Source: Shigella phage Shfl1
Strand: one strand, 5' to 3'
Sequence record: HM035024
DNA: 50,661 nt
This document shows positions 2,423 through 44,211 of the stretch, in pieces. The position numbers and the translations under genes are program-made. The notes under the pieces are model-generated. The model searched no databases. It saw nothing but the letters and a program-made list of their open reading frames with translations, and was not told the DNA's origin. How positions within the stretch are numbered: position 1 is the stretch's first letter; each line of letters opens with the position of its first letter.

Positions 2423-2529
2423 ACTTCAATACAATTGCATTATGGTCTGCCGTCTGGTTCTTCTGCATGGGTCACGCCATTGTTAGGATCGTAATCATGT
2501 TACTACTGTGTGCCGGAGCGTTCGAATGA
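2419..2529 (+). CDS. putative 36-aa hydrophobic peptide (MNFNTIALWSAVWFFCMGHAIVRIVIMLLLCAGAFE)
   Basis: ATGA start/stop overlaps at both ends link it to flanking genes; not in the ORF track (below 60 aa); hand translated. Confidence 0.25.
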   Translation: MNFNTIALWSAVWFFCMGHAIVRIVIMLLLCAGAFE

Positions 2530-2699
2530 TGCGCATTCTGATTTGCATGATGGCGGCAGTCGCCATAACTATCCTGGCTGTATCCGGTTGTGTGGAGGTA
2601 AAAGAGCGATGCCACGAAACCGGGAACCAGGTTACTACGTTCGTGATGGTCGGCAACGTATTGCTACCAATCACATCAAATGAGATCACTTGCGAATAG
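2526..2699 (+). CDS. small putative lipoprotein (57 aa precursor)
   Basis: N-terminal hydrophobic signal followed by lipobox-like LAVSGC; GGAG 10 nt upstream of internal ATG at 2526 (track ORF 2508..2699 trimmed). Confidence 0.45.
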   Translation: MMRILICMMAAVAITILAVSGCVEVKERCHETGNQVTTFVMVGNVLLPITSNEITCE

Positions 2700-26401: not shown

Positions 26402-29400
26402 ATGATTCAAAAAGTGATAAGCGGATCGAAAGGCGGTTCACCTAAGCCGCATAAGCCAGTTGAGATGGAAGATAATCTAATCTCAATCAACAAAATCAAG
26501 ATCCTGTTAGCTGTGTCTGATGGCGAGATTGACGAAACATTCAGCCTAAAGCAGTTGATGTTTAACTCAGTCCCGGTGCAAAACGAGGATGGCTCATTTA
26601 ACTTCGAGGGAGTAAAGGCAGAGTTTAGGCCGGGGACGCAGACTCAGGAATATATCAAGGGGATGGAAGATAGCTCTAGTGAGGTAACTGTAAACCGTGA
26701 GGTTACTACAGATAACCCATACACGATCTCAGTAACCAACAAAACACTTTCGGCAATCCGTATCAAAATGTTTATGCCTCGCGGCGTACGAATTGAAAGC
26801 AACGGTGATAAAAACGGCGTAAGAGTTGAGTATGAGGTGCAACAAGCTGTTGATGGCGGCTCGTTTGAGACGGTGCTCACCGATGTAATCGAAGGCAAAA
26901 CAATGTCAGGTTACGATCGAAGCAGACGTGTAAACCTACCTAACTTCAATAATCAGGTGATATTCAGAGTCGTTCGTAAAACTCCAGACTCTAAAGACTC
27001 GAACGTTGTTGACGCGATTCAAGTAAAGAGCTATGCCGAGGTGATTGATGCTAAATTCCGTTACCCTCTGACTGGTCTTCTTTTTGTCGAGTTCGATTCG
27101 AAGATGTTCCCAAACCAGTTGCCTACGATCTCAATTCGTAAGCGCTGGAAGATTGTAAACGTTCCGTCAAACTATGATCCAGAATCGCGAACTTATAACG
27201 GAAATTGGGATGGAACTTTTAAGAAGGCGTGGACGAATAATCCGGCTTGGGTGCTTTATGACCTGATGATTAATCAGCGTTATGGGCTGGATCAGAAAGA
27301 GCTTGGAATATCTGTCGATAAATGGGCGCTATATGAGGCGGCGCAATATTGCGATCAGATGGTTCCTGACGGTAAAGGCGGTACGGAGCCTCGCTACCTT
27401 TGTGACGTGATAATTCAGTCACAGACTGATGCGTACAAGGTGATTCGAGATATTTGCTCAATCTTCCGTGGCATGAGCTTTTGGAATGGTGAAAGCATTT
27501 CGGTAATCATCGACAGGCCGCGTGAACCTGCGTACATCTTCACTAACGACAACGTGGTTAATGGTGACTTCTCCTACACGTTCGCAAGCGAAAAGAGCAT
27601 GTACACGACGTGTAATGTGATGTTTGATGATGAACAAAACATGTATCAGCAGGACGTTGAGCCAGTATTCGATCGTGAGGCTACTCTACGTTTTGGGAAC
27701 AACGTAACGAGTATTACAGCGATCGGTTGCACACGTCGAAGCGAGGCCAACCGACGCGGGAGGTGGATTCTGAAAACTAACCTCCGCAGCACTACGGTAA
27801 ACTTCGCTACCGGACTTGAGGGCATGATCCCGACAATCGGAGATGTTGTAGCAATAGCTGATAACTTCTGGTCAAGTAACTTGACGATGAACCTGTCAGG
27901 GCGTTTGCTCGAAGTATCCGGTAGTCAGATTTTCCTGCCGTTCCGCGTTGATGCTCGCGCAGGTGACTTTATTATCGTAAATAAGCCCGATGGTAATCCC
28001 GTGAAGCGCACAATCTCAAGTGTTAGTGCGGATGGTAAGACTATAGAGGTTAACATCGGCTTTGGCTTTCCTGTGAAGCCTAACACGGTATTCGCAATCG
28101 ACCGTACCGACATTGCGTTGCAGCAGTACGTCGTGACCAAAATCGACAAGGGTGATGATGATGAAGAGTTTACCTACAAGATTACTGCGGTTGAGTACGA
28201 TCCTAACAAGTACGATGAGATTGATTACGGAGTTAACATCGACGACCGACCGACGAGCATCGTTGAGCCAGATCAGATCCCTAAACCGGAAAACGTGCAG
28301 GTGTCCTCAGAGTCGAGAATCGTCCAGGGTATGAGCGTAGAAACGATGATTGTTAGCTGGGATAAAGTGCCGTACGCAGTTTTCTATGACGTCCAGTGGC
28401 GAAAGGATAACGGCAACTGGCAGAACGTTCCGCAGACGGCAAACAAAGAGGTTTACGTTGAAGGGATTTACGCTGGAAACTATCAGGTTCGCGTTCGATC
28501 TGTAGCTGGCTCAGGTACGACTTCAGGATGGTCAAATATCGTAGCTGCGACGCTGACGGGTAAACAAGGTGAGCCGGGACGACCTATTAACCTTACAGCT
28601 ACGGATGATGTTGTTTTTGGTATCCGTACAAAATGGGGGTTCTCTGATGGTTCTGGAGATACGGCCTATACAGAGTTGCAACAGTCACCGGATGGAACAG
28701 TGGATAACGCAAGTTTGCTTTCTTTGATTCCGTACCCGCAGCATGAGTATTATCACTCACCGATGCCTGGAGGGAATATTGTGTGGTATAGGGTAAGGAC
28801 GGTTGACAGGATCGGTAACGTGTCTCAGTGGACTGATTTTGTCAGAGGTATGGCATCAACAAACGTTGACGATATCATCGGAGAGATTTCTGTCGATATC
28901 GAAAACTCGCCGGGTTACGAGTGGCTTGTTGATAACGCAACAGACAACGCGGCGCAGAACGCAGCTAACGCAGAGGCAGCAATAGAAAACGCGCTCGCCA
29001 ATGACAAAGACGCGATCTACATGAAGAAGGAGAACGGAAAACGAAAAGCTGAGTACACGAAATCACTTAAACTTATTGCTGATGAGACGCAGGCGCGAGT
29101 GACGTCGATCGAGCAGTTGAAGGCAAGTTTTGACGATCAGATTAGCGCAAGCAATAGCGAATTGCGTGAAGTTATAGCGACTGAGACTGGAGCGCTATCG
29201 CGTGAAATTGACCAACTCAAGGCAGAGATTGGTGATGATATCCAGGCAAGTTTGACTGATATCAGAGAGGCTATAGCAAACGAGACTGAGGCGAGAACGC
29301 AAGCTGACTTGTCGTTAAGCGCGAGGCTCGGGAATAATGAGGCGGCACTTTCTCAAAAACTTGATTCGTGGAGTAACGCGGATTCGACTGGTGCAATGTA

Positions 29401-29851
29401 CGGCGTCAAATTGGGTCTTAAATACAACGGGCAGGAATACAGCGCAGGCATGGCTATGTCTCTGATTGGTTCCGGCGCTGCGGTTAAGGCTCAGATTTTA
29501 TTTGAGGCATCACGATTTGCCATCATGACTGGAATGAATGGTCAGACGCAGTACCCATTCGTTGTTGAGAATGGCCAGGTTATTCTAAGTAGCGCGATCA
29601 TCAAGGATGGATTTATTACTAACGCCATGATTGGTAACGCGATTCAGTCTAACAATTGGGATGGAAATCAAGGGTGGCATATTAACAAGAATGGCGCAGC
29701 TTACTTCATGAACGCAACCGTAAGAGGTGCTTTGTATGCAAATAACGGAGCCTTTGCATTCAACGGGACAAACAATACGGTTCAGATAAACAATAACGGG
29801 ATCACGGTTAACCTACCTAACGGTGGACGAGTGGTTGTTGGTGTATGGTAA
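26402..29851 (+). CDS. central tail fibre / host specificity protein (lambda gpJ-like)
   Basis: 1149 aa; last large gene of tail cluster; fibronectin-III-like segments; Gly/Asn-rich C-terminal region. Confidence 0.8.
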   Translation: MIQKVISGSKGGSPKPHKPVEMEDNLISINKIKILLAVSDGEIDETFSLKQLMFNSVPVQNEDGSFNFEGVKAEFRPGTQTQEYIKGMEDSSSEVTVNREVTTDNPYTISVTNKTLSAIRIKMFMPRGVRIESNGDKNGVRVEYEVQQAVDGGSFETVLTDVIEGKTMSGYDRSRRVNLPNFNNQVIFRVVRKTPDSKDSNVVDAIQVKSYAEVIDAKFRYPLTGLLFVEFDSKMFPNQLPTISIRKRWKIVNVPSNYDPESRTYNGNWDGTFKKAWTNNPAWVLYDLMINQRYGLDQKELGISVDKWALYEAAQYCDQMVPDGKGGTEPRYLCDVIIQSQTDAYKVIRDICSIFRGMSFWNGESISVIIDRPREPAYIFTNDNVVNGDFSYTFASEKSMYTTCNVMFDDEQNMYQQDVEPVFDREATLRFGNNVTSITAIGCTRRSEANRRGRWILKTNLRSTTVNFATGLEGMIPTIGDVVAIADNFWSSNLTMNLSGRLLEVSGSQIFLPFRVDARAGDFIIVNKPDGNPVKRTISSVSADGKTIEVNIGFGFPVKPNTVFAIDRTDIALQQYVVTKIDKGDDDEEFTYKITAVEYDPNKYDEIDYGVNIDDRPTSIVEPDQIPKPENVQVSSESRIVQGMSVETMIVSWDKVPYAVFYDVQWRKDNGNWQNVPQTANKEVYVEGIYAGNYQVRVRSVAGSGTTSGWSNIVAATLTGKQGEPGRPINLTATDDVVFGIRTKWGFSDGSGDTAYTELQQSPDGTVDNASLLSLIPYPQHEYYHSPMPGGNIVWYRVRTVDRIGNVSQWTDFVRGMASTNVDDIIGEISVDIENSPGYEWLVDNATDNAAQNAANAEAAIENALANDKDAIYMKKENGKRKAEYTKSLKLIADETQARVTSIEQLKASFDDQISASNSELREVIATETGALSREIDQLKAEIGDDIQASLTDIREAIANETEARTQADLSLSARLGNNEAALSQKLDSWSNADSTGAMYGVKLGLKYNGQEYSAGMAMSLIGSGAAVKAQILFEASRFAIMTGMNGQTQYPFVVENGQVILSSAIIKDGFITNAMIGNAIQSNNWDGNQGWHINKNGAAYFMNATVRGALYANNGAFAFNGTNNTVQINNNGITVNLPNGGRVVVGVW

Positions 29852-29854
29852 CAG

Positions 29855-29880
29855 AAAGGGGCCGATTGGCCCCTTTTTTA
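29855..29880. terminator. bidirectional intrinsic terminator between convergent gpJ-like and receptor-binding-protein genes
   Basis: GGGGCC-GATT-GGCCCC flanked by A-run and T-run. Confidence 0.65.
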
Positions 29881-30843
29881 ATACATGTTTGGAGTGAAAG
29901 GAATTGGCATTGAAATGTTTATATTGAAGGGGAATCGCGCTCCGCTTTGGGTGGAATAGTTACCTACTCTTGTTCCGGGGGCGCTTCTCACGTTACCGCC
30001 ACTCATACACACGCCCTTGTATCGAATGTTATTATATCCACCTGTAACTCTGCATATTGTACCAGTTCTAAGTATTGGGAAAAATCCACCGCACCACTGC
30101 CACCCGTCATTTATCGCCATAGTCCCGCCGAGAACAAAAGGACGTCGAACGATTGAGAAAACAATCTGACCAGCAGGATTGCTCATAGTGATTCCAGGGC
30201 CGGGAGGTGGTGGGGTGTTATTAAATATTACGAGTTGAACGTATACGCTCGCGCCAACGTCATCAATACCGTTATAGTTTGCGTCTCTGCACCATATTGT
30301 ATTCCCGTCAGATTCAAGTGTTACATTTGGGTTATCCCACATACCGAAAGGAACACCCTGGACTGGCAACTGAGCCTGACCGTTAACCTGGATGCCTCCA
30401 ACAAATGCCGCACTCATCAACCTGGCGTTATTCGGTATCGCCGCGAAGTTCGTTGAATCGCTAACAAGCATCCCCTGATTTCCAGCCTGGGCGGGGAGAA
30501 TTTCGTAACAGTTGCCGTAAAACCTCATCCTTCTTCCACCATGACCGTTAAAATTACCTACCGTTATTCTCCCGGTTGAATCATTAACCTTCTGAAAGCT
30601 GGTTAAATAATACACCTCCGGGATATAATCCATGTCGTCTATGTAGATAGCCTGAGATGGAAGGCAAAAAGCGGTAGATCCTGGACTCATTTGCAGACCA
30701 AAATCAAAAACCGATCCAGATGAATCAACCCCGTCCGCTTGTATTGGTCCGCACCATGAAGGGGCGCGAAGTCCAGAGGTTATCTCCATTGCCGGACGAC
30801 CGTCATTTAGGTTTATGTATATTCCTTGTCCCATAATTACCAC
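29878..30843 (-). CDS. putative receptor-binding protein
   Basis: 321 aa Gly/Asn-rich protein convergent on gpJ-like gene and co-transcribed with a small lipoprotein, an arrangement like T5 pb5-llp; no catalytic motif. Confidence 0.35.
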   Translation of the reverse strand: MVIMGQGIYINLNDGRPAMEITSGLRAPSWCGPIQADGVDSSGSVFDFGLQMSPGSTAFCLPSQAIYIDDMDYIPEVYYLTSFQKVNDSTGRITVGNFNGHGGRRMRFYGNCYEILPAQAGNQGMLVSDSTNFAAIPNNARLMSAAFVGGIQVNGQAQLPVQGVPFGMWDNPNVTLESDGNTIWCRDANYNGIDDVGASVYVQLVIFNNTPPPPGPGITMSNPAGQIVFSIVRRPFVLGGTMAINDGWQWCGGFFPILRTGTICRVTGGYNNIRYKGVCMSGGNVRSAPGTRVGNYSTQSGARFPFNINISMPIPFTPNMY

Positions 30844-31067
30844 TCTTTGGTTTTGATTGATACCTTACCGCTGAAGTTACCCTGATCGTCGTCGGATGAC
30901 AGACCTTTGAATCGCATATCTATTTCTCCAGCCGGAACCTTCTTGCCGTCAACGAATCGCATCATGCAAGATCCGTAAGTGTAAGTAACGCAGTCTCCAT
31001 TTTTAAGATTCTGAGCGCAACCAGTCAGGATGAATGCAGCAGTAATAATGGCGATTAACTTTTTCAT
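30837..31067 (-). CDS. small lipoprotein, putative superinfection-exclusion factor (Cor/Llp-like)
   Basis: Signal peptide MKKLIAIITAAFILTGC with lipobox LTGC; start trimmed to internal ATG 31067 (GAGGA RBS); adjacent to putative receptor-binding protein. Confidence 0.45.
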   Translation of the reverse strand: MKKLIAIITAAFILTGCAQNLKNGDCVTYTYGSCMMRFVDGKKVPAGEIDMRFKGLSSDDDQGNFSGKVSIKTKEW

Positions 31068-31124
31068 TTGTATGTCCTCGTCTTTAGTGTGATTGCATTG
31101 TATGTCGCATTTACTTTTATTGCA

Positions 31125-31140
31125 ATAGCACGATTGCAAT
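31125..31140. promoter_or_regulatory. palindromic motif variant ATAGCACGATTGCAAT in divergent intergenic region
   Basis: Near-perfect palindrome TTGCAATAGCACGATTGCAA. Confidence 0.3.
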
Positions 31141-31146
31141 TTTTTA

Positions 31147-31320
31147 GTGTAACAGGTGTCTATTTTTGTAACCGTAACGGGTGTTACAAAATACACCACA
31201 TCCGATCGCAGAGGGATATGATAAAAACTCTATATAATATATATAGATAGATAATATTTAATTTTAGCTTTATATATATAATTATTGCTGTGTAACAGTT
31301 GTCTATCGTGTAACAGGTGA
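31147..31320. repeat. iteron-like repeats GTGTAACAG(G/T)TGTCTAT
   Basis: Copies at 31147-31163, 31290-31306, partial 31308-31320; inverted half-sites TGTTACA (31414) and ATAGACACC (31432); palindrome TGTAAC-N10-GTTACA at 31167-31188. Confidence 0.7.
31230..31246. repeat. 17-bp AT-rich palindromic element CTATATAATATATATAG (copy 2)
   Basis: Identical to 171-187. Confidence 0.85.
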
Positions 31321-31480
31321 TTTTATTGATTCGTCAAATTTCTATCATATATGTTCAAAATTTAATCAATATTGATTCTATTCATGGATATCTGTGTATT
31401 TCTAAGAAAATGCTGTTACAAGTATTACACAATAGACACCACATAAAAACAGTGCTAAGCTATTGATTACGTTGACACTG

Positions 31481-31515
31481 GTTGTAACTTGAGCGATATA
31501 GACACGCAATTACAC
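31481..31515 (+). promoter_or_regulatory. candidate sigma70-type promoter for exonuclease/erf/ssb operon
   Basis: TTGACA (31481-31486), 17-nt spacer, GATATA; overlaps a TGTAAC iteron half-site. Confidence 0.35.
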
Positions 31516-31593
31516 GCCAATTACATGTATTCGATTGACTAAACGCCGTTAATGGCTATAATGGATTCATCGTAAACGAAGGAGATAAACGCA

Positions 31594-32658
31594 ATGTTCC
31601 AAGTATTCACATCAAGTCAGCTTTCTAATGACGAGTATCATAGTAACGAAGGTTGGGCGGCAGAGTATGTAAGCGGATCGAGCCTTGCAGAAATCTACCA
31701 AACTTGCCCGGCTAACTGGCGATTCAAGAAGAATGAGACAACGAAAGCGCTTGAGTTTGGCACTCAGTCGCATACTAACTTTGAGAGTCGTGATCTGTTT
31801 ACTGCAACGTATGCACGTTGTCCGGCTCCGTCAGAGTTCAAGGATCTGATTACGTCACAAGCCGCACTGGCTGCAAAATTAAAATCTTTCGGCCTGAAAG
31901 GTACATCCGGCAAGCAATACCCGGACCTCATCAAAATGATGATTGATTGCGGTGAAGAACTCAACGTTCAGTATCTGATCGAACTGATCGCAGAAGCAGA
32001 GGCGCGTGCTGAAGGAAAGCAATTGGTTGACGCTGACAAATACGACGCCTGCATGAAGATGAGGGCGATCCTTGAGCAAAATCCGGATCACGAAGCATGC
32101 ATCAATAGCGAGACGGCTCAGCGTGAGATCTCAATCTTCGGTGAGATATCCGGCGTCAAAGTTAAGGTTCGTCTTGACCATCTGGACTACAAAGAGAATG
32201 TTCCAGGTCGTGTGCTGACTGGTTATGATGAGAGCGGCGATCCGGTATTTGAAGACGTTATTTTCCCTGAAGCGCTAATTATCACTGACTTCAAAACCAC
32301 GATGAGCGCTAACCCGTTAGAGTTCCCGAGACTGGCATACAATCACGGGTATTATCTTAAAATGGCCTTGCAGCATGACCTGCTACGACGTGCAATCCAG
32401 GCTGGCGCTTTTGAAGGAAACTTTCCGGAAGATATCCCGATCGTAGTTCGATTGCTTGCGCAGGAGAAAAAAGAGCCTTACATCGCACTTGCTTACCGTA
32501 TGACTATGGAGCAAATCAGGATCGGGCGCAGTCAGTACATTAGCGTAGTCCACACTTACAAGGCTTGCTCTGAAATGGATGTTTGGCCTGGATACGCTGG
32601 CGATGCAAGCGAGATTGAACTTGAAACGCCGTCATGGGTACGCTACCAAAACAAGTAA
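31594..32658 (+). CDS. putative PD-(D/E)XK exonuclease (RecE-like)
   Basis: 354 aa; D..E..K-like segments VRLDHLDYKE and IITDFKTT; immediately upstream of Erf and SSB genes. Confidence 0.45.
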   Translation: MFQVFTSSQLSNDEYHSNEGWAAEYVSGSSLAEIYQTCPANWRFKKNETTKALEFGTQSHTNFESRDLFTATYARCPAPSEFKDLITSQAALAAKLKSFGLKGTSGKQYPDLIKMMIDCGEELNVQYLIELIAEAEARAEGKQLVDADKYDACMKMRAILEQNPDHEACINSETAQREISIFGEISGVKVKVRLDHLDYKENVPGRVLTGYDESGDPVFEDVIFPEALIITDFKTTMSANPLEFPRLAYNHGYYLKMALQHDLLRRAIQAGAFEGNFPEDIPIVVRLLAQEKKEPYIALAYRMTMEQIRIGRSQYISVVHTYKACSEMDVWPGYAGDASEIELETPSWVRYQNK

Positions 32659-33844: not shown

Positions 33845-33872
33845 AATCCCCGCATTGCGGGGATTTTATCAT
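33845..33872. terminator. bidirectional intrinsic terminator between convergent ssb and tail fibre genes
   Basis: ATCCCCGC-ATT-GCGGGGAT flanked by A-run and T-run. Confidence 0.65.
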
Positions 33873-35653
33873 TTGGACTTCAACATTTTTATCTCTTCTT
33901 GTAACTCTTCAACTTTCTTTATTGTATCCTGCAAAGCTCTCATAGTGTCAAGCAATAAAGGAGTTGTATCAAGCTCAAGCCTTTCAACTTTTGGCCCGTT
34001 TAGCTCGTGGCTCTCATACAACCTTCTCTTAACATATAGATTGTCGATCTCTTCTATCTCCTGAGCTATAACACCTCGCCTTACCCTTTCTTGCTCATCA
34101 TCGTTAAATATAAAGTTCCTAAATCTCATTGATTTTATATTGTTGTATGCAATGCTTGATTCATCATCCTTTATGCTGTGCTTTATATTTCTGTCAGATG
34201 CCGGAACTTGTTGGAAACTTCCAGCCCCTTGCGGTCCAGCGTAAGATATTTGCCCTGAAGCCATAAACCTGAAATGCATTTGCAGACCAATATTGCCTGC
34301 TCCATCCCTATCTTGAGCACCTACTGATATTTGTGCCCTGGGCCATTCAGGATTGCCCGTAGTCATCATGCCAAAAGCTACGCCGCCAACGTACCCTTGC
34401 CCCCTCGTATCACACGATCCAGCAACAAGCGATTGATAGTTTTCAGCACCACTATCGGCGGTGAAAGCATTTCCTTGAAAGCATGAAGCGGACCACATCT
34501 GGTTATAACCCATAGTTGTTTTCTGGCATAAAAACTGATTGGATCTGAATCTATTGTTAGTCTCGAAGTAGTTTGCATATTCGTAAAATAATAAAGTCCC
34601 AGCATATCCATCACTGCCATTTTTTTTTCTGACGTAAATCCCTGGCTCAGACACTCCATCAGGTGACATAATCATCAATGATGACAATATGGACTGACTA
34701 CCCCAGTTAGAACCGTCCCATGAGTTCCTTCCTGCACCTATAGCCCCGGTGGTGTTAATAGTAAGAAAGTTAACAGCATCATTTTCACCTAACCCAATAT
34801 TTTTTCTAGACTCTTTTTTGTTCACAAGACCAGAGAGATTACCATCCTTAGTTAAAAGATTATCGGCATTAATGCTATTAGCTGCGTCTTTAGCTTCTTG
34901 AGCGCTTACCGAAGCCGCATCTTTTGATCTTACGGCATCGTCACGCGCTGCCTGAGCATCGTTTTTTGCAGAGGTTGCCGTTTGCGCTGCCGTTTGAGCG
35001 TCGTTAACGTAAACCGATAAATCACCTTTAGCATCATTAATTGCCTGAATAGCCGAAGCCTCTTCCGTGTCGATGTGAGAGATGACAGATGATTCCTTAG
35101 AGCCGATATCAGTGATAGCCTGATCTTTTGCGGCATTAATTCCACCGACAGCACTGTCAACAATCTGCTGTGTCTGATTCTTGATTGAGTTAGTTTCATC
35201 ACGCGCAGCGTTGGCTGCGTCACGCGCTAATTCAGCCTGATTTTGCGCAGCTTGAGAATCAGATTTCGCCTTATTCACATCAGCAACTATTTGCTCAAGT
35301 TTATTCATATCAAGCTGATTTATCAGATCTATAGCTGCCGCGATCTCAGTCTCTTTGCTTTGATAGTATCGAAGCGTCTCGGCAACGTTTTGAGCTAAGC
35401 CGTTAACAGTTAACGAATCGTTAAGCAAGATCACATACTTTCCGTCAGATGCGGTCTGACCATCCGTAGAGATAGCCTTTAGCTCTGTGTCGCTCACAAT
35501 ATCGCTAATTACAGCCAGCTTAATTGGTTGCTCCAGGAATACGATAGTTGCACCGACTCGAATCAGAGCAAGCTGATCTTTCCATTTTGTATCTGTTCCG
35601 TGAACCGTACCGTCTGCATCCATTGATGCAGTACCGCGTCTGTATAAAGCCAT
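33869..35653 (-). CDS. tail fibre protein with C-terminal intramolecular chaperone (peptidase S74-like) domain
   Basis: 594 aa; C-terminal segment ...SDRNIKHSIKD...LLDTMRALQDTIKKVEELQEEIKMLK matches auto-cleaving chaperone domains of endosialidase and T5 L-shaped fibres; Ala/Gln/Asp-rich coiled stalk. Confidence 0.75.
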   Translation of the reverse strand: MALYRRGTASMDADGTVHGTDTKWKDQLALIRVGATIVFLEQPIKLAVISDIVSDTELKAISTDGQTASDGKYVILLNDSLTVNGLAQNVAETLRYYQSKETEIAAAIDLINQLDMNKLEQIVADVNKAKSDSQAAQNQAELARDAANAARDETNSIKNQTQQIVDSAVGGINAAKDQAITDIGSKESSVISHIDTEEASAIQAINDAKGDLSVYVNDAQTAAQTATSAKNDAQAARDDAVRSKDAASVSAQEAKDAANSINADNLLTKDGNLSGLVNKKESRKNIGLGENDAVNFLTINTTGAIGAGRNSWDGSNWGSQSILSSLMIMSPDGVSEPGIYVRKKNGSDGYAGTLLFYEYANYFETNNRFRSNQFLCQKTTMGYNQMWSASCFQGNAFTADSGAENYQSLVAGSCDTRGQGYVGGVAFGMMTTGNPEWPRAQISVGAQDRDGAGNIGLQMHFRFMASGQISYAGPQGAGSFQQVPASDRNIKHSIKDDESSIAYNNIKSMRFRNFIFNDDEQERVRRGVIAQEIEEIDNLYVKRRLYESHELNGPKVERLELDTTPLLLDTMRALQDTIKKVEELQEEIKMLKSK

Positions 35654-43322: not shown

Positions 43323-43810
43323 TGAGTTTAAAAAATAACGTTATAGGCGCATCGATCGGGGCAGCTTTGACGTTGACACCTACCCTACTGGAACGAATCG
43401 AAGGTATAGAATACGAGGTTTATTACGATATCGCCGGAGTCCCTACCGTATGCAGCGGAATAACCGGGCCGGACGTCATACCTGGTAAGAAATACACTAA
43501 GCGAGAATGCGATGCTTTGTTGATAAAACACATCGGCGTCGCTCAGCGATACGTTGACAAAAAGGTAAAGGTTGATATTCCGGTAACGATGCGAGCGTCA
43601 TTGTATAGCTTTACTTTCAACGTTGGTACTGGCGCGTTCGGATCTTCTACAATGCTTAAGCTAATAAATCAGGGTAAGCACAGGGAAGCGTGCAATCAGT
43701 TATGGCGATGGGTATACTACTACAACCCAAAAACCAAAAAGCGCGAAGTGTCTAGAGGACTCAAGAACAGACGCGCTGAAGAATACGCGTATTGCGTTAA
43801 GGAATTATGA
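43322..43810 (+). CDS. endolysin (T4-type lysozyme, probable SAR endolysin)
   Basis: Catalytic triad spacing E-x8-D-x5-T in [19 protein letters not shown]; N-terminal Gly/Ala-rich weakly hydrophobic stretch [17 protein letters not shown]. Confidence 0.7.
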
Positions 43811-44211
43811 TGAAACTGAAGAAAACATGCATTGCGATTGTAGTGGCTGTTGGTGTTATTTCTCTATCCGGTTGCTCGATGCCATCTGCCCTGAGCGGTT
43901 TAATCGGATCTAAACCTGAAGTTACAGCACAGATTGGAGAGGAGAACACAAAGCAATTAGCAGGAGTAACCGCAAAATCCGAAGATAAGCGAGATGTTAA
44001 AGTTGAAAAGTCCAATGTAGGAAAGGTTGACTCTTCCGTGAAGAAGTCAATTGAAGTGTCAACCATTCAGGCCAACACGGTTAACGCTGAAAGCATCACT
44101 GTGACTAAGCCTGGAAACTGGTATGATCCTATAGTTGGTTGGACACTCGTTCTCATTGGTCTGTTGCTGGTTTATTTTTCAATTCGTAAGGGCGAAAAAA
44201 AGGAGGCTTAG
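43807..44211 (+). CDS. unimolecular spanin (lipoprotein with C-terminal transmembrane anchor)
   Basis: Lipobox LSGC after signal peptide; C-terminal [18 protein letters not shown]; last gene of lysis cassette. Confidence 0.55.

What the first reader, a model, noticed from the sequence alone, without database searches (positions are those of the whole stretch)
29878..31067. Convergent receptor-binding/lipoprotein module resembling superinfection-exclusion pairs
A 76-aa lipoprotein (lipobox LTGC) is translationally coupled (stop 30837-30839, next ATG 30841-30843) to a 321-aa Gly/Asn-rich protein. The operon is transcribed towards the 3' end of the gpJ-like gene and shares a bidirectional terminator with it. 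The organisation mirrors T5 llp-pb5 and Cor-type systems in which the phage makes a lipoprotein that blocks its own outer-membrane receptor. A second small lipoprotein candidate lies in the early region (2526..2699).
Basis: partly seen in the sequence, partly recalled or inferred. Interest (0 to 1): 0.5.

Follow-up and report, generated by a model that had tools for sequence, protein, structure and literature searches.

The report
Phage LptD-binding protein plus exclusion lipoprotein
This is the known host-recognition cassette of a T1-like phage: a tail-tip protein predicted to bind the essential outer-membrane protein LptD, co-translated with a small lipoprotein that blocks the same receptor in infected cells. 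It is real but ordinary.

Summary
The two genes exist as described, are under strong purifying selection, and are tightly coupled. They converge on the gpJ-like gene across a strong two-way terminator hairpin. One detail is wrong: the codon at 30841-30843 is GTG. The real start is the ATG at 30832-30834, two bases after the lipoprotein stop, so the protein has 318 aa, not 321.

The window is a Tunavirus (T1-like, Drexlerviridae), about 90% identical to T1 and to Shigella phages SH6 and Sfin-1.

- **The 318-aa protein** belongs to Pfam DUF6453. It aligns end to end with the phage Oekolampad receptor-binding protein solved on LptDE (PDB 9RPT, E=1e-66). It is 68% identical to the receptor-binding protein of phage OzMSK, which needs LptD.
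- **The 76-aa lipoprotein** belongs to Pfam PF24052. It matches Rtp45, the exclusion lipoprotein solved on the periplasmic face of LptDE (9RPS), and keeps its lipid cysteine and disulfide cysteines.

The receptor is predicted to be LptD, not FhuA, BtuB or TolC. The pair resembles T5 pb5/Llp in function but shows no detectable sequence homology to it.

This locus type is published, and the near-identical SH6 allele is already listed as a predicted LptD binder. The only small addition is that, relative to T1, the cassette was swapped with one joint exactly after the lipobox cysteine codon.

The parts
29656..29851 (+). Last ~65 codons of the gpJ-like central tail-fibre gene (whole gene 26402..29851). 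This is the probable docking tip for the separate receptor-binding protein, and it was exchanged together with the cassette.
   Evidence: The last 65 aa are 31% identical to T1 but 75-77% to AHP42, TR1 and Rtp. The preceding 335 aa are 97% identical to T1 and about 60% to those phages. Nucleotide homology to T1 ends at about 29638-29655. Pfam domains are Phage_Tail_Tip, FNIII-A_GpJ and Phage-tail_3. A 2026 preprint reports the GpJ C-terminal tip as associated with receptor specificity.
29853..29877 (.). Two-way intrinsic terminator hairpin between the convergent gpJ and receptor-binding-protein genes.
   Evidence: GGGGCC-GATT-GGCCCC with a T run on each strand. Folding energy is -19.2 and -16.9 kcal/mol, and no shuffle out of 200 folds as well. 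The site is annotated as opposed terminators in SA32RD and AHP42. The simple scan missed it.
29878..30834 (-). Receptor-binding protein, 318 aa, DUF6453 family, predicted to bind the extracellular face of LptD/LptE.
   Evidence: DUF6453 at 4.8e-126. It aligns 1-318 to residues 1-321 of the PDB 9RPT/9RPW/9RQI chain, the Oekolampad protein on LptDE, at E=1.1e-66. It is 68% identical over its full length to OzMSK_038, 98.7% to SH6, and 43% and 41% to the Oekolampad and Rtp44 proteins. There is no hydrophobic span: the highest 19-aa Kyte-Doolittle mean is 1.2. dN/dS is 0.013-0.035.
30837..31067 (-). Superinfection-exclusion lipoprotein, 76 aa, PF24052/Rtp45 family. The signal peptide is codons 1-17 (31017..31067) and the mature domain is codons 18-76.
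   Evidence: PF24052 at 6.8e-24 and LPAM_1. It matches 9RPS chain D (Rtp45) at E=1.5e-8 alone and 4e-35 with a family profile. Cys17, Cys26, Cys34 and the C-terminal E-W are invariant in the family. It is 67% identical to the Oekolampad lipoprotein and 40% to Rtp45 in global alignment. Codons 1-17 and the leader match T1 cor in all but 7 of 114 aligned nucleotides, and identity collapses right after the Cys codon.
30832..30848 (-). Coupling junction. The lipoprotein's last codons, AAA GAG TGG TAA, are followed by TT and then the ATG of the receptor-binding-protein gene.
   Evidence: Read directly from the sequence. In Rtp, AHP42 and TR1 the same K-E-W codons read AAGGAGTGG, a consensus ribosome-binding site, and the stop overlaps the start as TAATG.
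31097..31125 (-). Candidate sigma-70 promoter for the two-gene operon (TTGCAA-17-TACAAT), inside the 526-nt AT-rich region shared with T1 upstream of cor.
   Evidence: A consensus match only, 9 of 12 positions. The stretch matches T1 upstream of cor almost base for base. It is not experimentally supported.

Best explanation
This is the dedicated receptor-recognition cassette of a T1-like siphophage, of the type that targets LptD.

**Proposed mechanism**
- The 318-aa DUF6453 protein is made as a separate polypeptide. It docks by its conserved N-terminal base onto the C-terminal tip of the gpJ-like central fibre (inferred).
- Its variable distal loops insert into the extracellular mouth of the LptD/LptE lipopolysaccharide translocon. 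This is the terminal, irreversible receptor step (inferred from homologues).
- The 76-aa gene upstream encodes a lipoprotein. It is exported, lipidated at Cys17 and sorted to the inner leaflet of the outer membrane, since it has Ala rather than Asp at +2 (inferred).
- There it binds the periplasmic side of LptD and pushes extracellular loop 4 into a shape that cannot accept the receptor-binding protein. Infected cells and their debris therefore stop adsorbing this phage and other LptD-dependent phages (inferred from the Rtp45 structure).
- The two genes form one unit, read towards gpJ, translationally coupled and ended by a shared two-way terminator.

**Origin relative to T1**
- The cassette (gpJ tip, receptor-binding protein and mature lipoprotein) replaces the FhuA-type genes ST32, ST31 and cor.
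- The cor promoter, leader and signal peptide were kept.

**Shown here:** the genes, their coupling, the terminator, family membership, selection and the swap joints.
**Inferred:** LptD binding, the exclusion activity and docking on gpJ.
For: **Family membership**
- DUF6453 and PF24052 both score far above their curated cut-offs.
- The large protein aligns end to end with the Oekolampad protein solved on Shigella LptDE (9RPT, E=1e-66; family profile 8e-148).
- The lipoprotein matches Rtp45 solved on LptDE (9RPS). The lipid Cys and the two disulfide Cys are invariant (disulfide Cys30-Cys38 in Rtp45).

**Receptor**
- The large protein is 68% identical to the OzMSK protein. That phage cannot infect two lptD loop-deletion strains (PMC13035648).
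- A survey of 255 coliphages found four unrelated protein families at this locus, each tied to one receptor: FhuA, BtuB, LptD or YncD. Identity within each family is above 30%.
- The window protein is 31-68% identical to every LptD-family member tested.
- T1 ST31 and ST32 have no match in the window.
- SH6, whose protein is 98.7% identical to this one, is listed as a predicted LptD-dependent phage.

**Locus and organisation**
- The position directly after gpJ is that of the published 'bona fide RBP loci' (PMC8594841).
- The same lipoprotein-then-binder order, coupling and convergent terminator occur in Rtp, AHP42, TR1, Oekolampad and OzMSK.
- The gpJ tip co-varies with the cassette.

**Selection**
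- dN/dS is 0.013-0.13.
Against: - No experiment exists for this allele or for the near-identical SH6 allele. LptD use is a prediction.
- Conserved residues in the family lie at the base, not at the receptor-contacting tip. A diverged tip could in principle have changed target or binding mode.
- The lipoprotein is only 33-40% identical to Rtp45, the one solved member (33% by BLASTP; 40% in global alignment). The closer Oekolampad lipoprotein could not be expressed by the authors.
- My own structure model, made from a single sequence, failed with mean pLDDT 33.8. The fold was therefore not tested independently.
- Promoter and timing are unverified. One transcript carrying both an exclusion factor and a virion protein has not been demonstrated.
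Confidence: 0.85

Rival explanations
1. It is the same kind of cassette, but this allele recognises an outer-membrane protein other than LptD, or needs a second receptor as phage Bas01 does with NupG.
For: The receptor-contacting loops are the least conserved part of the family, and authors describe three loop groupings. This allele is only 41-43% identical to the Rtp44 and Oekolampad types. Bas01 needs both NupG and LptD, through a special gpJ domain. No experiment exists for the SH6-type allele.
Against: Across 64 T1-like phages, family membership at above 30% identity predicted the receptor. Members only 33-35% identical to each other (Rtp44/Bas01 type and Oekolampad type) both use LptD. 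This allele is 68% identical to the protein of an experimentally LptD-dependent phage. The paired lipoprotein also belongs to the LptD-blocking family.
Confidence: 0.08
2. It is a FhuA, BtuB or TolC system of the T5 Llp/pb5 or T1/phi80 Cor type.
For: The backbone is about 90% identical to T1, which uses FhuA. The lipoprotein gives a weak match to the Cor family in PHROGs (4e-5, residues 1-32).
Against: The Cor match is the signal peptide only, and nucleotide identity to T1 cor ends exactly after the Cys17 codon. T1 ST31 and ST32 are absent. Neither T5 pb5 nor Llp appears in PDB searches at E up to 10. TolC-type phages lack this locus and instead carry an extended gpJ.
Confidence: 0.03
3. The database labels are right: the large protein is a 'membrane protein' moron and the small one is a lysis spanin or a generic lipoprotein, with no role in adsorption.
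For: RefSeq and PHROGs label the large protein 'membrane protein / moron'. One record (phage Chapo) labels the lipoprotein homologue 'u-spanin'.
Against: The large protein has no hydrophobic span, and its homologue is a soluble protein solved on LptDE. The true u-spanin homologue lies at 43810..44208, next to the holin and endolysin genes. The lipoprotein homologue was solved bound to LptDE.
Confidence: 0.02

Closest known systems
LptD-type 'bona fide RBP locus' of small siphophages: Rtp rtp44/rtp45, Oekolampad bas18_0025/0026, OzMSK_038/039, SH6
   Same: Same two protein families (DUF6453 and PF24052). Same place directly after gpJ, same gene order, same tight coupling and same convergent terminator. 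The proteins are 96-99% identical to those of SH6, pSf-2 and SA32RD.
   Different: The combination is mixed. The binder and the gpJ tip are closest to Rogunavirinae and Braunvirinae alleles (68% to AHP42 and OzMSK). The mature lipoprotein is closest to the Dhillonvirus type (67% to Oekolampad, 40% to AHP42). The signal peptide and leader are those of T1 cor. LptD use has not been tested for this allele.
Phage T5 pb5 (receptor-binding protein) and Llp (exclusion lipoprotein), acting on FhuA
   Same: The logic is the same. A separate tail-tip protein binds an outer-membrane protein, and a small periplasm-facing lipoprotein binds the same receptor from inside and prevents further adsorption.
   Different: No detectable sequence relationship. 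The receptor differs (FhuA against LptD). Llp works by long-range allostery, whereas Rtp45 physically displaces a loop.
T1/phi80/N15 Cor cassette (ST32, ST31, cor), acting on FhuA
   Same: It occupies the identical genomic slot, between gpJ and the exonuclease VIII gene, in a backbone about 90% identical. The promoter region, leader and signal peptide are shared.
   Different: The mature lipoprotein and the binder genes are unrelated. T1 has two + strand genes followed by cor on the - strand. Here both genes are on the - strand.

Membership tests
LptD-specific receptor-binding protein family (DUF6453; Rtp44, Oekolampad and OzMSK proteins) | Full-length sequence homology: above 30% identity at about full coverage to family members, or a Pfam DUF6453 match | tested here: met
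   DUF6453 at 420 bits against a cut-off of 25. Residues 1-318 align to 1-321 of the 9RPT chain at E=1e-66. Identity to eight members is 31-68%.
LptD-specific receptor-binding protein family (DUF6453; Rtp44, Oekolampad and OzMSK proteins) | [quoted passage not shown] | tested here: met
   The stop lies 26 nt from the gpJ stop, in convergent orientation. The layout is the same in Rtp, AHP42, TR1, Oekolampad and OzMSK.
LptD-specific receptor-binding protein family (DUF6453; Rtp44, Oekolampad and OzMSK proteins) | Two-beta-sandwich fold with a loop-bearing tip | tested here: inconclusive
   The single-sequence AlphaFold2 model was unusable (mean pLDDT 33.8). The fold is implied only by 43% identity to a solved structure.
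LptD-specific receptor-binding protein family (DUF6453; Rtp44, Oekolampad and OzMSK proteins) | Physical binding to LptD/LptE, and infection dependent on LptD | not testable with these tools
   This needs plating on lptD mutants or in vitro binding. It is shown for Oekolampad, Bas01/02 and OzMSK but not for this allele.
Rtp45-type exclusion lipoprotein (PF24052) | Sequence homology to Rtp45 or the Oekolampad lipoprotein | tested here: met
   PF24052 at 84 bits against a cut-off of 27. 9RPS chain D at E=1.5e-8. 67% identical to the Oekolampad lipoprotein.
Rtp45-type exclusion lipoprotein (PF24052) | Lipoprotein signal peptide with a lipobox cysteine, plus the conserved intramolecular disulfide pair | tested here: met
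   LTGC with Cys17. Cys26 and Cys34 align with Rtp45 Cys30 and Cys38 and are invariant in seven members.
Rtp45-type exclusion lipoprotein (PF24052) | Blocks adsorption of the cognate phage when expressed | not testable with these tools
   This needs expression in a sensitive host. Structural evidence exists only for Rtp45.
T5 Llp / pb5 pair | Sequence homology to Llp or pb5 | tested here: not met
   No T5 chain appears in single-sequence or profile searches of the PDB at E up to 10.
Cor (T1/phi80/N15) | Homology of the mature protein to Cor | tested here: not met
   The PHROG Cor match covers residues 1-32 only. Nucleotide identity to T1 cor stops after codon 17. Global identity is 33%, driven by the signal peptide.

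The most novel reading that the evidence does not exclude
The cassette is a three-way natural mosaic.
- The gpJ tip and the receptor-binding protein are of the Rogunavirinae/Braunvirinae type.
- The mature exclusion domain is of the Dhillonvirus type.
- The promoter, leader and signal peptide come from T1 cor, with the joint exactly after the lipobox cysteine codon.

If the mosaic reflects function, two things follow. The exclusion lipoprotein would not be matched to a particular subtype of receptor-binding protein, but would protect against all LptD-dependent phages. And the conserved signal-peptide/lipobox sequence would serve as a recombination joint that lets T1-like phages change receptor and exclusion specificity in one step.
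Probability: 0.5. Interest if true: 0.3.

Novelty: already known. Interest (0 to 1): 0.15.

Why it matters
The result lets this phage's terminal receptor be predicted from sequence as LptD, an essential and conserved protein. It also identifies the gene likely to make infected cells refractory to other LptD-dependent phages, which is useful for phage-cocktail design and for resolving laboratory contaminations. None of this is new biology. The locus type (2021), the structures and mechanism (2025) and the LptD prediction for the near-identical SH6 allele (2025) are all published.

Tried and rejected
- **Terminator scan:** the simple scan found no terminator in 29500-31700. Direct folding shows a strong hairpin, so the scan result was set aside.
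- **Structure model:** the single-sequence AlphaFold2 model of the 318-aa protein was unusable (pLDDT 33.8), so no fold search was run.
- **RNA families:** an Rfam search of 29800-31650 gave only a sub-threshold SraG match over the terminator (23.8 bits against a cut-off of 50). This was rejected as chance.
- **Contact residues:** I looked in the supplement of PMC12685063 for residue-level contacts between the binder and LptD. They are given only as images, so conservation of contact residues could not be scored.
- **Rtp genome paper:** Wietzorrek et al. 2006 (PMC1367250) is not held. From memory only, it reported that cloned rtp45 confers resistance to Rtp.
- **Experimental receptor data for Tunavirus LptD alleles:** a literature search found none.
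- **u-spanin and 'membrane protein' labels:** considered and rejected.

Full report
**What is in the sequence**

On the minus strand there are two adjacent ORFs.
- The first, 31067..30837, encodes 76 aa beginning MKKLIAIITAAFILTGC. This is a textbook lipoprotein signal peptide: a Lys-Lys n-region, a hydrophobic core, the lipobox L-T-G-C with Cys17, and Ala at +2.
- Its TAA stop (30839..30837) is followed by TT and then an ATG at 30834..30832. That ATG opens a 318-aa ORF ending at 29878.
The mechanical ORF list starts there and so gives 321 aa.
- Every annotated homologue, and the solved Oekolampad protein, start at the ATG, reading MGQGI.../MGAGI....
- The large protein has 13.2% Gly and 8.5% Asn and no hydrophobic span.

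Both genes point at the 3' end of a 1149-aa gpJ-like gene (26402..29851, +; Pfam Phage_Tail_Tip, FNIII-A_GpJ and Phage-tail_3).
- The 26-nt gap contains GGGGCC-N4-GGCCCC between an A run and a T run.
- It folds at -19.2 and -16.9 kcal/mol on the two strands, better than all 200 shuffles.
- It is annotated as a pair of opposed terminators in related phages.
- The consensus scan missed it.

The genes are real. Against Sfin-1, the large gene is 92.4% identical in nucleotides but 98.7% in protein (dN/dS 0.013). The small gene has dN/dS of 0.048.

**Which genome this is**

- The window is collinear with phage T1 at about 90% identity.
- It is about 90% identical to Shigella and E. coli Tunavirus phages.
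- At this locus it is 96% identical to SA32RD and SH6.
- The main breaks in T1 homology are this module (about 29640-31017), the distal part of the lateral tail fibre gene (33867-34818) and a few small-ORF stretches.

**What the proteins are**

The 318-aa protein:
- It matches Pfam DUF6453 at 4.8e-126.
- It aligns from first to last residue with the chain called 'tail fiber protein' in PDB 9RPT, 9RPW and 9RQI (E=1.1e-66; 8e-148 with a family profile).
- Those entries are the receptor-binding protein of phage Oekolampad bound to the Shigella LptD/LptE translocon (PMC12685063).

The 76-aa protein:
- It matches Pfam PF24052 'Phage lipoprotein' (6.8e-24).
- It matches PDB 9RPS chain D (E=1.5e-8; 4e-35 with a profile).
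- That chain is Rtp45, the exclusion lipoprotein of phage Rtp, solved on the periplasmic side of LptDE.
- According to that paper, Rtp45 sits between LptE and LptM. It sends a hairpin up the LptD lumen and lifts extracellular loop 4 by up to 20 Å, so the receptor-binding protein can no longer bind.
- The lipid cysteine, the two disulfide cysteines (Cys26 and Cys34 here, Cys30 and Cys38 in Rtp45) and the C-terminal Glu-Trp are invariant in seven family members.

**Which receptor**

- The BASEL study matched allelic variants of the locus just downstream of gpJ to the terminal receptor. It identified LptD as a new receptor (PMC8594841).
- A 2026 preprint on 255 coliphages reports four unrelated protein families at this locus. 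Each is tied to FhuA, BtuB, LptD or YncD, with more than 30% identity within a family.
- The window protein is 31-68% identical to every LptD-family member I extracted.
- It is 68% identical over its full length to OzMSK_038. That phage fails to infect two lptD loop-deletion strains (PMC13035648).
- The same paper lists SH6 as a predicted LptD-dependent phage. The SH6 protein is 98.7% identical to the one here.
- The T1 FhuA-type genes ST32 and ST31 have no counterpart in the window.
- I therefore assign LptD with about 85% confidence. This is a prediction, because I found no experiment on this allele.

**How it probably works**

- The binder's N-terminal 23 residues are the most conserved part of the family (invariant M1, G4, I7, N10, D11, G12, M16, I18, T19, G21, R23).
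- Published models place the conserved residues at the base that faces the tail.
- The last 65 residues of gpJ follow the cassette rather than the backbone. They are 31% identical to T1 but 75-77% to AHP42, TR1 and Rtp. The preceding 335 residues are 97% identical to T1.
- This fits a separate binder docking on the gpJ tip, as others have proposed. It remains an inference.
- The lipoprotein lacks Asp at +2, so it should go to the inner leaflet of the outer membrane. That is where Rtp45 meets LptD.
- Tight coupling is a family trait. In Rtp, AHP42 and TR1 the final K-E-W codons read AAGGAGTGG, a consensus ribosome-binding site, and the stop overlaps the start as TAATG. Here and in Oekolampad the stop and start are separated by two bases.
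- A candidate promoter, TTGCAA-17-TACAAT at 31125..31097, is only a consensus match.

**Relation to T1, T5 and Cor**

- In T1 the same slot holds ST32 and ST31 on the plus strand and cor on the minus strand.
- Nucleotide identity between the window and T1 runs through the shared upstream region, the leader and codons 1-17 of the lipoprotein. It collapses immediately after the TGC cysteine codon.
- That explains the weak PHROG 'Cor' match, which is restricted to residues 1-32.
- The left joint lies in gpJ near codon 1085.
- Within the cassette the parts have different nearest relatives. The binder is 68% identical to AHP42 and OzMSK but 43% to Oekolampad. The mature lipoprotein is 67% identical to Oekolampad but 40% to AHP42.
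- Profiles of both families find no T5 pb5 or Llp in the PDB. The T5 comparison is therefore one of logic, not of ancestry.

**Verdict**

- The system is already described in the literature down to the near-identical SH6 allele, so interest is low.
- The exact lipobox joint and the mixed origin of the parts are a modest footnote.

Noticed in passing
L009:4941-5222 (phiEco32 phi32_106); also SU10 and Bas89 KarlSchell: Homologues of this LptD-blocking lipoprotein (35-47% identity, same cysteines and C-terminal K-E-W) occur in phiEco32-like podophages (Kuravirus). They sit among early small ORFs, far from any DUF6453 gene. The BASEL follow-up reports no outer-membrane-protein receptor for these phages. 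They might exclude LptD-dependent siphophages, or might use LptD themselves.
   Followed up: partly
window 31017..31067 (-) and 29656..29851 (+): The cassette swap relative to T1 has one joint exactly after the lipobox Cys17 codon of the lipoprotein. The other lies about 65 codons before the end of gpJ. The T1 cor promoter, leader and signal peptide are retained.
   Followed up: yes
window 2526..2699 (+): A 57-aa ORF with a lipoprotein-like N-terminus (MMRILICMMAAVAITILAVSGC). It is 84% identical to T1 ST72 and falls in phrog_8628, of unknown function. It is conserved in T1 despite the different receptor cassette, so it is unlikely to be tied to this phage's receptor.
   Followed up: partly
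L008:2501-3457 (Klebsiella phage NJS2); L005:2501-3466 (FritzHoffmann, Bas20): In Klebsiella Webervirus the DUF6453 homologue (about 30% identity) lies on the same strand directly after gpJ, with no lipoprotein annotated beside it. In FritzHoffmann no lipoprotein is annotated beside the binder either. The pairing is therefore not universal.
   Followed up: no
window 33867..34818, within the ORF 33869..35653 (-): The distal part of the lateral tail fibre gene is the other large block with no T1 homology. Only the first 288 aa match T1 ST26, at 82%. This fits independent exchange of the primary-receptor fibre.
   Followed up: no
window 29161..29292 versus T1 27902..27933: The offset between the window and T1 shifts by 99 nt inside gpJ (1149 aa here against 1172 aa in T1), and the BLAST segments overlap there. 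This suggests a repeat-associated insertion or deletion in the coiled-coil-like region.
   Followed up: no
window 31535..31562 (+): A near-consensus sigma-70 promoter (TTGACT-16-TATAAT, 11 of 12) lies upstream of the exonuclease VIII gene. It diverges from the lipoprotein operon across a 526-nt AT-rich spacer shared with T1.
   Followed up: no
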